Program-made: the position numbers and the translations under genes
Notes under the pieces: model-generated
What the model was told of the DNA's origin: nothing
The model's database searches: none
The model's input: only the letters and a program-made list of their open reading frames with translations
Assembly: GCA_965247775.1 (NCBI GenBank)
Contig: OZ252031.1
Location: 148,294-212,293 of the forward strand
Direction of reading: 5' to 3'
Source of the DNA: Dehalococcoidia bacterium
GTDB lineage: Bacteria > Chloroflexota > Dehalococcoidia > Bin125
DNA length: 64,000 bases
Shown here: positions 10,008 through 11,612 of the stretch, piece after piece
Layout: every line of letters begins with the position of its first letter
Numbering within the stretch: position 1 is the stretch's first letter

Positions 10008-11612
10008 GTGCCGGAGCGCCACCGCGGCAAACTGATCGGGCTGGGCGCCCTGTTGGTGATCGTGATCGGCTTCGTGCTGGTGAAGCCCGCGACGCCGATC
10101 ATCTCGGTGGCGGCGGAGCCGATCATCGAGGGCGGCTACGAGATCACGAACACGATGATCTCCGCCTGGGTGATCATGGTGGTGCTGGCGATCGTGGTGT
10201 TCTGGCTCTACCGGCGGCTGCGCAACGTGGAAGAGGCGCTCGTGCCGCGGGGCTTGCAGAACGTCGTGGAGGCGCTGCTGGACGCCTTGTTCAACGTGGT
10301 GAAGCTGGTGGCGGGGGAGAAGAACGGCCGGCACTTCTTCCCGGTGGTGGCCTCGATCTTCCTGATCCTGCTGGTGGCGAACTGGTTTGGGCTCTTCCCC
10401 TGGAACAACTCGTTCGGGCGGACGGTGGATCTGCGTTTTGAGTACATCGAGGCGCTGGAGAAGGACGTGGAGGACGTGGTGGCGGGGCCGGAGGGGACGG
10501 GGCTGAGCGCGGCGCAGGTGAACCGGACGTTCAGCACGTTCTATTTCGACCCGATCCCGTTCGAGGCGTCGGCGCTGGACGAGGCGGACGTGTTGATCGC
10601 GGCGGCGCTGCGGGATGAGGTATCGGGGAGTGAGCGGGCGGTGCGGGAGTCCTTCCGGGAGGATCCGGTGCCGGCGGGGATGGAGGGGGCGGCCCTGATC
10701 GAGGCGACGGAGGAGCGGCTGGAGGAGGCGCTGGCGGCGTTCGGGGTGAGCACGGCGCTGTTGGAGCGGTACGGGGCGGCGACGGAGGCGGTGGCGCTGG
10801 AGCGGGCGTTGGTGTTCAATCTGCCGCTGTCGCTGGCGGCGGTGGGTGAGAGCGAACTGCACGGGGCGGTGATCAACAGCGGCGGCGTGAACGTGGTGCC
10901 GATCAAGGCGGACGATTTCGCGTACGACCCGTTCCTGGAGGACACGATCGCCGGGGCGGACGGACGCTTCGGCGGCCGCGCGCGGATCTTCGACCCGCTG
11001 GCGGAGGGGGAGGAGAACGTGCCGCCTGGGAGTGGCGAGGTGGCGCTGCCGGTGACGCTGAACACGGCGCACGTGGGGATCATCCTGAAGCAGGTGCGAG
11101 AGGACGTGATCGGGATCGAGGCGGGGGAGATCGCGCGGAGCAAGGGGGTGGGGGAGATTTTCCCGCTGTTCCGGTCGATCGCGACGGACCTGAATCTGCC
11201 GCTGGCGGTGGCGCTGTGGGCGTTCATTTTCGTGCAGCTGTGGGGGGTGCAGGCGCTGGGGGTGGGGACGAACTTCGGGCGCTTCCTGGGGGTGGGGAGG
11301 GCGGCGGTGGTGACGGGGCCGATCGGGGTGTTCGTGGGGATCCTGGAGATCATTTCGGAGGTGGCGCGGATCATCTCGTTCACGTTCCGACTCTTCGGCA
11401 ACATCTTCGCGGGGGAGATCGTGCTGTTCATGGCGGCGTTCCTGGTACCGTTCCTGGTGGCGACGGTGTTCTACGGCCTGGAAGTATTCGTGGGCTTCAT
11501 CCAGGCGTTCGTGTTCGCGATGCTCACGCTGGTGTTCGCGGTCACCGCGGTGTCCCATGGGGAGCACGGCGGTGAGGATGAAGAGATCGAGGAAGGTGTC
11601 GCCGGGCCCTGA
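10008..11612 (+). CDS. atpB: F0F1 ATP synthase subunit a with large insertion (534 aa)
   Basis: [39 protein letters not shown] (essential Arg) and GFIQAFVF motifs. About 245 extra residues at 10419-11150. Confidence 0.95.

What the first reader, a model, noticed from the sequence alone, without database searches (positions are those of the whole stretch)
10419..11150. ATP synthase subunit a with an acidic inserted domain of about 245 aa
Seen: AtpB is 534 aa with all core motifs intact, including the essential Arg in FRLFGN and the Gln in IQAF. Between NWFGLFPW and [11 protein letters not shown] there is an in-frame, Glu/Asp-rich, non-repetitive, globular-looking segment with no stop or frameshift. 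Known: subunit a is normally about 230-350 aa, and this loop corresponds to the extracytoplasmic loop near the proton entry half-channel. Inference: an uncharacterised extracytoplasmic domain that could act as a proton antenna, a dimerisation or envelope tether, or a regulatory cap. It shows no intein termini.
Basis: partly seen in the sequence, partly recalled or inferred. Interest (0 to 1): 0.75.

Follow-up and report, generated by a model that had tools for sequence, protein, structure and literature searches.

The report
ATP synthase a-subunit with outer-face domain
The proton-channel subunit of this uncultured bacterium's only ATP synthase carries a conserved, well-folded, strongly acidic domain of about 250 residues and no recognisable fold on the outer face of the membrane, beside the proton entrance, which greatly enlarges a short loop insertion recently described in Chloroflexus.

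Summary
AtpB (window 10008-11612, 534 aa) is an intact F-type a-subunit. Its aH3-aH4 linker holds 254 residues, against 1-20 in canonical relatives.

- **Not an artefact:** contigs from three independent studies span both junctions without gaps. Codon usage matches the host. There are no intein or mobile-element features.
- **Distribution:** the insert is in 63 of 65 genomes of one uncultured Dehalococcoidia order. Both misses are assembly gaps. A profile search of 1.84 billion proteins finds it only in this clade's AtpB.
- **Selection:** it is under purifying selection.
- **Structure:** AlphaFold gives pLDDT 91 and pTM 0.89. No solved or viral structure is similar.
- **Location:** the site is the periplasmic linker that carries a 31-residue "unique insertion" at the mouth of the proton inlet in the Chloroflexus aurantiacus cryo-EM structure (PMC12002316).

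The function is inferred, not shown. I favour an acidic proton-collecting vestibule at the inlet (about 0.35). A tether or oligomerisation role, a regulatory cap and a passenger domain remain open.

This scan noted the same trait earlier in another genome (e1-1233394). I rate it a new variant of a known kind, interest about 0.6.

The parts
9767..9985 (+). small membrane protein upstream of atpB (PF09527, 'putative F0F1-ATPase subunit', AtpZ/AtpI-like)
   Evidence: Pfam PF09527 at E 1.1e-11. The NCBIfam TIGR02230 match is weak.
10008..11612 (+). atpB, F-type ATP synthase subunit a, 534 aa. It is the only PF00119 locus in the 2.78-Mb single-contig genome.
   Evidence: Best solved relative: 9itj_T, E 2e-46.
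10008..10400 (+). N-terminal core, residues 1-131 (aH1 to aH3, ending NWFGLFP)
   Evidence: Aligns to residues 4-143 of 9itj_T. Hydrophobic windows at residues 5-36, 45-72 and 106-132.
10401..11162 (+). expanded aH3-aH4 linker, residues 132-385 (254 residues between the anchor prolines). This is the inserted ectodomain.
   Evidence: AlphaFold2 model of residues 135-383: pLDDT 91.3, pTM 0.89.
10431..10820 (+). helical part of the ectodomain, residues 142-271 (seven predicted helices, net acidic)
   Evidence: DSSP on the model: H8-25, H34-43, H53-67, H73-84, H93-111, H115-120 and H126-137 in insert numbering. Charges per element.
10857..10940 (+). most conserved stretch of the insert, residues 284-311 ([28 protein letters not shown]; a Gly-Gly hairpin)
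   Evidence: Column conservation is 0.66-0.80, yet this is the lowest-confidence part of the isolated-domain model: pLDDT blocks 71 and 62, and below 50 at insert residues 159-161. It is also the top local profile match to the shorter insert of another family, though sub-threshold (E 0.0029).
10857..11153 (+). strand-rich C-terminal part of the ectodomain, residues 284-382, with one helix (351-364)
   Evidence: The structure searches barely tested it on its own (note).
11061..11072 (+). N352-T353-A354-H355, a (nearly) invariant motif at the start of the last helix of the insert
   Evidence: N352 is invariant. T353, A354 and H355 are kept in at least 90% of 44 sequences.
11163..11609 (+). C-terminal core, residues 386-534 (aH4 to aH6), with R461, N465, E470, E492 and Q499
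   Evidence: Aligns to residues 178-308 of 9itj_T. The named residues are invariant in 54 sequences.
11388..11390 (+). codon of R461, the essential stator arginine (corresponds to aArg249 of C. aurantiacus)
   Evidence: Alignment; invariant; the role of aArg249 is taken from PMC12002316.
11662..11928 (+). atpE, subunit c (start codon uncertain; the ORF reaches back to 11557)
   Evidence: PF00137 at E 5.1e-18; TIGR01260 above its cut-off.
12041..12541 (+). atpF, subunit b (start uncertain; the ORF reaches back to 11939)
   Evidence: TIGR01144 at 92.9 bits, above its cut-off of 65.5.
12557..13102 (+). atpH, subunit delta, full length (181 aa). It is not N-terminally shortened as in C. aurantiacus.
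   Evidence: TIGR01145 above its cut-off. Residues 4-178 align to Bacillus PS3 delta 3-178. Only residues 33-176 align to C. aurantiacus delta 16-154.
13117..17545 (+). atpA (13117-14646), atpG (14680-15552), atpD (15662-17074), atpC (17099-17545)
   Evidence: ORFs. Only gamma was scanned: TIGR01146 at 294 bits. Alpha, beta and epsilon are named from my reading of the translations and were not scanned.

Best explanation
**Shown, about 0.9**
- The single a-subunit of this organism's only F-type ATP synthase carries a lineage-specific insert of about 250 residues in the aH3-aH4 linker.
- The insert is predicted with high confidence to fold on its own.
- It arose once, on the stem of an uncultured order of Dehalococcoidia.
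- It is kept under purifying selection and is part of the translated protein.

**Inferred from homology, about 0.85**
The linker lies on the outer (P) side of the membrane. In the C. aurantiacus structure it forms the mouth of the proton inlet half-channel. The domain therefore sits outside the cell membrane beside, or over, the proton entrance.

**Inferred function, about 0.35**
The domain acts as an accessory of the inlet rather than as part of the rotary mechanism. It would be a strongly negatively charged vestibule, in many genera also rich in histidine. Such a vestibule would attract, buffer and hand on protons to the half-channel, as a proton-collecting antenna does, and could shield the entrance. 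That would help ATP synthesis at low or fluctuating proton-motive force.

The conserved, uncharged Gly-Gly hairpin (residues 284-311) is probably the part that docks onto the membrane core of Fo. The acidic helices would then form the exposed surface.
For: **Anatomy**
- The gene is an intact atpB whose Pfam match is split by the insert.
- The channel residues are invariant.

**Not an artefact**
- Independent contigs span the junctions.
- Insert GC3 is 0.94, and its codon usage correlates at r = 0.96 with atpA+atpD.

**Conservation**
- The insert is in 63 of 65 genomes and 10 of 10 genera of the order.
- The two misses are a contig-end fragment (G003) and a genome with no atpB assembled (G015).
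- Insert length is 225-262 aa in 44 of 44 AtpBs read.
- In close pairs, dN/dS of the insert is 0.04-0.22, against 0.014-0.17 for the core.
- There are 14 invariant and 16 nearly invariant columns.

**Fold**
- Mean pLDDT 91.3 and pTM 0.89.

**Location**
- The best solved relative is the C. aurantiacus a-subunit. The alignment breaks exactly at its linker: query 147 to 382 against chain 143 to 178.
- Passages of PMC12002316 place that linker on the periplasmic surface. They say the inlet half-channel begins at aHis170/aAsp171 of the extended linker.
- The insert has no transmembrane segment.
- 29 of 44 inserts carry 2 or 4 cysteines, as expected for an oxidising outer compartment.

**Charge**
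- Net charge is about -21 to -45 in 44 of 44 inserts, and 27 of 44 have 10-17 His.
- The window's insert (-0.108 per residue) lies in the most acidic 1% of 1725 crudely called ORFs of this genome, whose median is -0.017.

**Docking hairpin**
- The hairpin is the most conserved stretch, yet the least confident part of the isolated model.
Against: - No geometry was obtained. The full-length model could not be run, so the position of the domain relative to the inlet is not modelled.
- Only 11 insert positions are D/E in at least 80% of sequences. The negative charge is a bulk property, not a conserved patch.
- The most conserved elements (the GG hairpin and NTAH) are uncharged.
- The window's own insert has only 2 His.
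- 64 of 1270 proteins of the genome have a window of 249 aa that is equally acidic. Acidity alone is therefore not exceptional.
- The first search found no RNA holder, and no proteome data were found. Presence in the mature protein is therefore inferred.
- The reference used for the periplasmic location, C. aurantiacus, has two a-subunits and a shortened delta. Here delta is full length, so the overall architecture may differ.
Confidence: 0.4

Rival explanations
1. **Structural tether or oligomerisation module.** The ectodomain binds another component: the cell envelope, a second ATP synthase, the P-side face of the c-ring or subunit b, or a proton-releasing respiratory enzyme. It would fix or organise the enzyme rather than act on protons.
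For: - It is a large, rigid, confidently folded domain.
- It has a conserved but poorly placed hairpin that looks like an interface.
- From recall, not tested here: supernumerary subunits on the P-side of mitochondrial ATP synthases have such roles.
- The aH3-aH4 hairpin contacts the peripheral stalk in C. aurantiacus (passage of PMC12002316).
Against: - No partner was identified.
- No conserved extra gene was seen in the operon, but neighbourhoods in relatives were not compared.
- The hairpin could equally dock onto the a-subunit's own core.
Confidence: 0.2
2. **Regulatory cap or gate.** The domain closes or opens the inlet half-channel in response to outside pH, a metal or redox state, limiting proton leak or wasteful ATP hydrolysis.
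For: - It sits at the linker that forms the inlet mouth in C. aurantiacus.
- Many carboxylates and, in most genera, histidines and a cysteine pair could sense pH, metal or redox state.
Against: - The cysteines and the His-richness are absent from the window's genus and its nearest genera (15 of 44 have no Cys; the window has 2 His). Neither can therefore be the general mechanism.
- No known sensor fold was found.
- In C. aurantiacus, reducing the linker disulfide did not change activity (passage of PMC12002316).
Confidence: 0.1
3. **Passenger domain.** A permissive loop of the a-subunit has grown repeatedly in this class. The large version is kept because it folds stably and its loss would disturb membrane insertion or assembly, not because it adds a function to the enzyme.
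For: - The same loop varies from 14 to 161 residues in other families of the class, and 132 in one genome of another class.
- These inserts show no significant similarity to each other.
- The insert evolves about twice as fast as the core: 29-63% identity against 62-84%.
Against: - Length and motifs are kept across a whole order.
- dN/dS is far below 1 in close pairs.
- There are 14 invariant columns.
- The fold is compact and high-confidence.
- No f1 genome with a complete atpB lacks the insert.
Confidence: 0.15
4. **Artefact or selfish element.** The segment is a misassembly, an intein or a mobile insertion, and is absent from the mature protein.
For: - One contig of run X2 joins 10404 to 11196, skipping 791 bases. 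It has only 21 letters on its shorter side, was laid at 90% likeness, and what lies between is not known.
Against: - Contigs of three studies bridge both junctions without gaps.
- The insert is conserved in 63 genomes and has host codon usage.
- No direct or inverted repeats bracket it.
- No Hint, endonuclease or other Pfam family, and no PHROG, matches.
- 0 of 44 inserts have His-Asn near the C-terminal junction, and there is no conserved nucleophile at the N-terminal junction.
- The tool itself warns that joints like the X2 one usually come from other organisms.
Confidence: 0.01

Closest known systems
Insertion in the aH3-aH4 linker of the Chloroflexus aurantiacus a-subunit (His142-Thr172; PDB 9itj and related; PMC12002316, PNAS 2025; passages read, not the whole text or SI)
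   Same: - Same subunit and same loop. The window's AtpB aligns best to this chain (E 2e-46), and the alignment breaks at this linker.
- Same phylum.
- The linker is periplasmic and contributes the first residues of the inlet half-channel.
   Different: - It is 31 residues and partly disordered there. Here the linker holds about 250 residues and is predicted to fold with pLDDT 91.
- The bracketing Cys135-Cys173 disulfide is absent: the window's insert has no Cys.
- No sequence similarity between the two inserts was shown.
- C. aurantiacus has two a-subunits and a delta shortened by about 20 residues. The window's delta is full length.
Shorter aH3-aH4 inserts of other Dehalococcoidia families (for example the roughly 160-residue type found in at least 125 database proteins)
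   Same: - Same site and mostly acidic and His-rich.
- The first 16-20 residues after aH3 and a Gly-Gly hairpin give the best local profile matches.
   Different: - The matches are below significance: E 0.003-0.04, probability at most 11%.
- The helical bundle and the NTAH helix occur only in this order.
- Profile search of 1.84 billion proteins does not link the two types.
Acinetobacter baumannii a-subunit: N-terminal insertion and 12-residue aH4-aH5 loop extension (PMC8849298; passages read)
   Same: - It is a lineage-specific addition to a bacterial a-subunit that alters the surroundings of a proton path.
   Different: - It is a different loop, at the exit-channel side, and only 12 residues. 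It is not a folded domain.
Proton-collecting antennae of proton-translocating membrane proteins (concept recalled from the literature; only a search listing was seen)
   Same: - Clusters of surface carboxylates and histidines next to a proton entrance.
   Different: - Those are patches on existing surfaces, not a separate inserted domain. No such role has been shown for any a-subunit loop.
Earlier finding of this scan, e1-1233394 (another genome)
   Same: - A folded, strongly acidic insert of about 227 residues at the same site in a clade of uncultured Dehalococcoidia, with no recognisable fold, compared with the Chloroflexus loop.
   Different: - It is on other DNA. By length it probably comes from one of the genera with inserts of 225-240 residues. 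I could not retrieve its sequence.

Membership tests
F-type ATP synthase subunit a (Pfam PF00119) | Pfam match above the gathering score | tested here: met
   138.3 bits against a cut-off of 33.9, E 4.4e-40, in two stretches.
F-type ATP synthase subunit a (Pfam PF00119) | Essential stator arginine on aH5, plus the polar residues of the two half-channels | tested here: met
   R461 aligns to aArg249 of 9itj_T. R461, N465, E470, E447, E492 and Q499 are invariant in 54 sequences.
F-type ATP synthase subunit a (Pfam PF00119) | Placement in an atp operon with c, b, delta, alpha, gamma, beta and epsilon | tested here: met
   c, b, delta and gamma were confirmed by family scans. Alpha, beta and epsilon were named from my reading of the ORFs.
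NCBIfam equivalogs for subunit A (TIGR01131, NF004481 and others) | Whole-protein score above the curated cut-off | tested here: not met
   TIGR01131 scores 101.9 against 102.6, and NF004481 126.9 against 227. All 14 models fall below their cut-offs, and 11 of the 14 match in two stretches; I put the shortfall down to the insert splitting the match (inference). This is a property of the models, not evidence against orthology.
Chloroflexus-type aH3-aH4 linker insertion (PMC12002316) | Extra sequence inside the aH3-aH4 linker on the periplasmic side | tested here: met
   The alignment to 9itj_T breaks at query 147 to 382 against chain 143 to 178. The side of the membrane is inferred from the paper.
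Chloroflexus-type aH3-aH4 linker insertion (PMC12002316) | Cys-Cys disulfide that brackets the insertion | tested here: not met
   The window's insert and 14 other inserts have no Cys. In the remaining 29 of 44, the two Cys lie close together inside the strand-rich part rather than at the ends.
Chloroflexus-type aH3-aH4 linker insertion (PMC12002316) | Short (about 31 residues), largely disordered | tested here: not met
   Here there are 254 residues between the anchor prolines. The model has pLDDT 91.3, with 195 of 249 residues at 90 or above.
Chloroflexus-type ATP synthase architecture (two a-subunits, two stalks) | Delta subunit lacking about 20 N-terminal residues | tested here: not met
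   The window's delta has 181 aa. Residues 4-178 align to Bacillus PS3 delta 3-178. The subunit stoichiometry itself cannot be tested with these tools.
Intein | Hint domain; N-terminal Cys/Ser; C-terminal His-Asn followed by Cys/Ser/Thr | tested here: not met
   No Pfam match. 0 of 44 inserts have His-Asn in the last 15 residues. The junction residues are SFGR, MIGP and the like at the start and VGE or VGH at the end.
Any known protein domain or fold | Significant sequence or structure match | tested here: inconclusive
   - **Pfam:** at most 3 of 44 members match any one family.
- **PDB sequences:** nothing below E 0.16.
- **Foldseek against PDB:** best E 0.2, TM 0.14.
- **VIA-align against 48,161 chains:** none counted at Z >= 5; the best row prints Z 5.0 over 78 residues, rmsd 3.8.
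- **BFVD:** best E 0.021.
- **ESM Atlas:** no usable hit.
- **Gap:** model residues of about 197-249 were barely tested and could not be folded alone.

The most novel reading that the evidence does not exclude
The ectodomain is a new protein fold that works as a dedicated proton-handling module of an ATP synthase. It would be either an antenna or gate that changes how the enzyme couples to a weak or local proton gradient, or a docking site that links the inlet directly to a proton-releasing respiratory or other outer-face enzyme (localised proton transfer). On this reading, the variable inserts at the same loop across Dehalococcoidia are a family of such adaptations.
Probability: 0.12. Interest if true: 0.85.

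Novelty: new variant of a known kind. Interest (0 to 1): 0.6.

Why it matters
**Why a specialist would find it unexpected.** In the solved a-subunits compared in PMC12002316, the P-side aH3-aH4 linker is short. A 31-residue insertion in it was reported as unique only in 2025. Here a whole order of uncultured bacteria has built a 28-kDa folded domain of no recognisable fold into that loop, next to the proton entrance of its only ATP synthase.

**What it could make testable.**
- If the domain influences proton capture, gating or enzyme organisation, it gives a natural handle on how protons reach Fo at low driving force.
- The isolated domain is predicted to fold on its own, so it should be easy to make.
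- The operon could be expressed with and without the insert and the two forms compared.

**A practical point for annotation.** Curated equivalog models miss this AtpB narrowly because the insert splits the match.

Tried and rejected
**Structure jobs that could not be run**
- **Full-length AlphaFold model (alignment A3).** One job was accepted but interrupted. No model of the domain on the membrane core exists.
- **C-terminal subdomain alone (A7).** The machine did not answer. The statement "no known fold" is therefore weak for model residues of about 197-249.
- **Homodimer test (complex prediction, A4 in two copies).** It was never queued. There is no verdict.

**Searches that found nothing useful**
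- **RNA evidence.** No RNA holder was listed.
- **ESM Atlas.** No usable hit for the window's insert or for P0025.
- **Weak hits of the insert outside the order.** These 21 genomes had E values of 5e-5 to 9e-3. The 8 I fetched lie in 406-451-aa ORFs that I recognise, from recall, as aspartate kinase. I rejected them as chance or compositional. They were not tested with a family scan.

**Origin hypotheses rejected**
- **Internal duplication of atpB.** A 21-nt, 90% repeat encodes NLPLSLA in the insert and NLPLAVA at the start of aH4. hhalign gives probability 1.2%, so I rejected it.
- **Internal repeats within the insert.** None were found.

**Relation to inserts of other families**
- Homology was not shown.
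- With family profiles, the same two short elements recur, but below significance.

**Methods that proved unreliable**
- **Home-made secondary-structure estimate.** It agreed with AlphaFold on the helical N-terminal part. It called residues 345-358 strand where the model has a helix, so I dropped it.
- **dN/dS for distant pairs.** Synonymous divergence saturates at low values in this GC3-rich gene, which makes these pairs unreliable. I used only close pairs.

**Observation left open**
- **The X2 joint that skips 10404-11196.** I read it as a cross-match from another organism's atpB. This is not proven.
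Full report
**Observation**

The ORF at 10008..11612 (+) starts with GTG and encodes 534 residues with no stop or frameshift. Pfam PF00119 (ATP-synt_A) matches at E 4.4e-40, in two stretches.

The genome is a single contig of 2.78 Mb and holds only this one PF00119 locus. Its match is split into profile positions 2-87 and 77-215.

The gene lies in a standard operon:
- a small PF09527 protein, then a, c, b, delta, alpha, gamma, beta and epsilon;
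- c, b, delta and gamma were confirmed by family scans;
- alpha, beta and epsilon are named from my reading of the ORFs.

R461, N465, E470, E447, E492 and Q499 are invariant in a 54-row alignment of relatives.

**Not an artefact, an intein or a mobile element**

- Contigs of three runs from three different studies each cover 9702-11528 in one piece, with 13-16 differing letters and no gaps. In a fourth run, two contigs abut at 10970.
- One contig of that fourth run joins 10404 to 11196 with only 21 letters on one side, at 90% likeness. I read this as a cross-match from another organism's atpB, but that is not proven.
- The insert has GC3 of 0.94. Its codon usage correlates at r = 0.96 with atpA+atpD, the same as for the core of atpB.
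- No repeats bracket it.
- Pfam on all 44 family members gives nothing consistent; at most 3 of 44 match any one family.
- PHROGs gives nothing at E <= 0.01 for the 4 inserts I scanned.
- None of 44 inserts has an intein-type C-terminal His-Asn.

**Distribution**

- The insert alone, used as a query, finds a match in 63 of 65 genomes of the window's order (one family, 10 of 10 genera). Each match lies inside an open frame of 495-625 aa.
- The two misses are assembly gaps. G003 (66% complete) has only the first part of atpB at a contig end. G015 (94% complete) has no PF00119 match at all.
- I read AtpB from 44 of 45 loci. L069 did not pass my motif filter and was dropped. Insert length was 225-262 residues in all 44.
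- A word-index search gave 24 proteins, all carrying PF00119, at 45-98% identity over the insert.
- A profile of the 44 inserts, run against every one of 1.84 billion representative proteins, found 19 hits at E <= 0.001.
  - I inspected 8 of them. They were full-length AtpBs of this clade, fragments, frameshifted pieces, and one chimera of an apparently SecA-like N-terminus with AtpB.
  - The other 11 are 87-350 aa long and have matched ranges that fit fragments.
- A scan of one genome per species of 185,579 species returned 58 loci. All are titled as MAGs of Dehalococcoidia or Chloroflexi/Chloroflexota.

The domain is therefore a sequence family confined to the a-subunit of one uncultured order.

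**The loop is a hot spot**

- In a sample of 301 genomes of the class, 281 have a PF00119 match. By my hand count of the table, about 108 show the match split in two low-scoring pieces. The unpublished genome G296 is one of these rows.
- In 10 of 10 such genomes checked, both pieces lie in one open frame of 366-460 aa and are 74-156 residues apart.
- Their inserts are mostly acidic and His-rich but very diverse.
- In a MAFFT alignment of 45 AtpBs, the residues between the two anchor prolines number:

| Group | Loop length (residues) |
|---|---|
| This order (13 of 13 rows) | 232-262 |
| Other families of the class | 14-161 |
| Other classes (5 rows) | 1-35 |
| One genome of another class (G376) | 132 |

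- In a phylum sample, 217 genomes of other classes had a match. Only three showed the split signature: G376 (a real 132-residue loop), G552 (35 residues) and G419 (contig-end fragments). The unpublished genomes G488 and G491 are among the unsplit rows.
- A tree of the core has 44 rows; the fragment f38_G131 was dropped. It puts the order's AtpBs in one clade with 100/100 support, sister to a row with a 105-residue loop (support 90/89). The rest is an unresolved polytomy.

The large domain therefore arose once, on the stem of the order. Whether it grew from an older, shorter insert is open:
- Profile comparisons with other families' inserts are not significant.
- With family profiles, the best local matches are always the same two elements: the first 16-20 residues after aH3, and the Gly-Gly hairpin. 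Their E values are 0.003-0.04, with probability at most 11%.

**Selection**

- The insert diverges about twice as fast as the core: 29-63% identity to the window against 62-84%.
- In close pairs, dN/dS is 0.04-0.22 for the insert and 0.014-0.17 for the core.
- Distant pairs are unreliable because synonymous divergence saturates.
- There are 14 invariant and 16 nearly invariant columns.

**Structure**

AlphaFold2 on the 44-row insert alignment gives mean pLDDT 91.3 and pTM 0.89, with 195 of 249 residues at 90 or above. The model has these parts:
- seven helices (protein residues 142-271);
- a strand-rich part (284-382) that contains one helix (351-364);
- that helix begins with the nearly invariant NTAH motif.

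No similar structure was found:

| Search | Result |
|---|---|
| Foldseek against PDB | 0 matches at E <= 0.001; best E 0.2, TM 0.14 |
| VIA-align against 48,161 representative chains | none counted at Z >= 5; best row prints Z 5.0 over 78 residues, rmsd 3.8 |
| BFVD (viral) | best E 0.021 |
| PDB sequences with the profile | nothing below E 0.16 |
| ESM Atlas | no usable hit |

The VIA-align best score is below the usual background of 7-8 that the tool quotes. The last 50 or so residues of the model were barely tested. I could not fold them alone because the machine did not answer.

One point stands out. The most conserved stretch is residues 284-311 (column conservation 0.66-0.80). It is also the least confident part of the isolated model, with pLDDT blocks of 71 and 62 and values below 50 at three residues. 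I read this as a contact surface whose partner is missing from the model. This is inference.

**Location and comparison with what is known**

The best solved relative is the a-subunit of C. aurantiacus (9itj_T, E 2e-46). The alignment covers query 4-147 and 382-519 against chain 4-143 and 178-308, so the window's insert replaces that protein's linker.

Passages I read of PMC12002316 state the following:
- The insertion is partly disordered and closed by a Cys135-Cys173 disulfide on the periplasmic surface.
- The inlet half-channel begins at aHis170/aAsp171 of the extended linker.
- The enzyme has two a-subunits and two stalks, together with a delta shortened by about 20 residues.

The window's delta is full length, so I expect the usual single-stalk architecture here. 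This is inference.

Other points bearing on location:
- The insert has no transmembrane-like segment.
- 29 of 44 inserts have 2 or 4 cysteines. The window's genus and its nearest genera have none.

A. baumannii has a 12-residue extension in another loop and an N-terminal insertion (passages of PMC8849298).

Four full-text searches found no description of a large a-subunit ectodomain:
-, which found the Chloroflexus paper;
-;
-, with 0 papers for Dehalococcoidia + ATP synthase + a-subunit;
-.

I did not see the supplements of PMC12002316.

I could not retrieve it by sequence.

**Charge**

- The window's insert has 46 D+E and 19 K+R.
- Across the 44 inserts the net charge is about -21 to -45, and His ranges from 2 to 17.
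- I made a crude ORF set for this genome: 1725 ORFs covering 70% of the genome. Against it, the insert (-0.108 per residue) lies in the most acidic 1%; the median is -0.017.
- However, 64 of 1270 proteins contain a window of 249 aa that is equally acidic.
- Only 11 insert positions are D/E in at least 80% of sequences.

**Reading**

- **Shown:** a real, conserved, lineage-specific domain in the a-subunit's aH3-aH4 linker that is predicted to fold on its own.
- **Inferred from homology:** it lies outside the membrane at the inlet mouth.
- **Inferred function, about 0.35:** an acidic proton-collecting or buffering vestibule, docked through the conserved hairpin.
- **Rivals:**
  - tether or oligomerisation module (0.2);
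  - passenger domain in a permissive loop (0.15);
  - regulatory cap (0.1);
  - artefact (0.01).

The structure of the whole subunit and the homodimer test could not be run.

Noticed in passing
P0003 (a relative of window 10008-11612): A protein 97% identical over the insert shifts, just before the start of aH4, into the frame that the window reads at 11216-11575. The channel helices are therefore out of frame. This is probably an indel error in a related assembly rather than a broken gene.
   Followed up: partly
P0027: A database protein of 535 aa joins an N-terminus that I read as SecA-like to the insert and C-terminal core of a clade AtpB. It looks like a chimeric assembly.
   Followed up: no
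L028 and proteins P0044-P0163: A second, much more widespread insert type of about 160 residues sits at the same loop. At least 125 database proteins of 333-489 aa carry it, and sources name them subunit a of Dehalococcoidia and others. It has its own invariant residues and deserves its own study.
   Followed up: partly
window 12557-13102: Subunit delta is full length (181 aa). PMC12002316 says Chloroflexi share a delta shortened by about 20 residues. That generalisation does not hold for this Dehalococcoidia genome.
   Followed up: partly
inserts of L015-L017, L046-L065, L070-L075: 29 of 44 inserts have a pair of cysteines close together in the strand-rich part (CLIECE, or CLP...C); two have four. 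The window's genus and its nearest genera have none. This may be a disulfide or a metal site that was gained or lost within the order.
   Followed up: no
G083 (L141), class sample: This genome has two separate atpB loci. One is a short 236-aa-frame type with a 1-residue loop, and it groups with an AtpB of another class in the tree (100/97). It may belong to a second, different F-type or N-type ATPase.
   Followed up: no
window 10818-10838 and 11193-11213: A 21-nt repeat at 90% identity encodes NLPLSLA inside the insert and NLPLAVA at the start of aH4. The profile test for a duplication origin was negative.
   Followed up: yes
L018-L025 (other Dehalococcoidia genomes): Insert residues of about 115-201 give repeated weak hits (E 5e-5 to 9e-3). 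In the 8 genomes I fetched, the hits fall in the middle of 406-451-aa ORFs that I recognise as aspartate kinase. This is probably compositional.
   Followed up: partly
window 17625-20075: Directly after the atp operon lie ORFs that I read as murA and mreB. If so, this organism probably makes peptidoglycan. They were not scanned.
   Followed up: no
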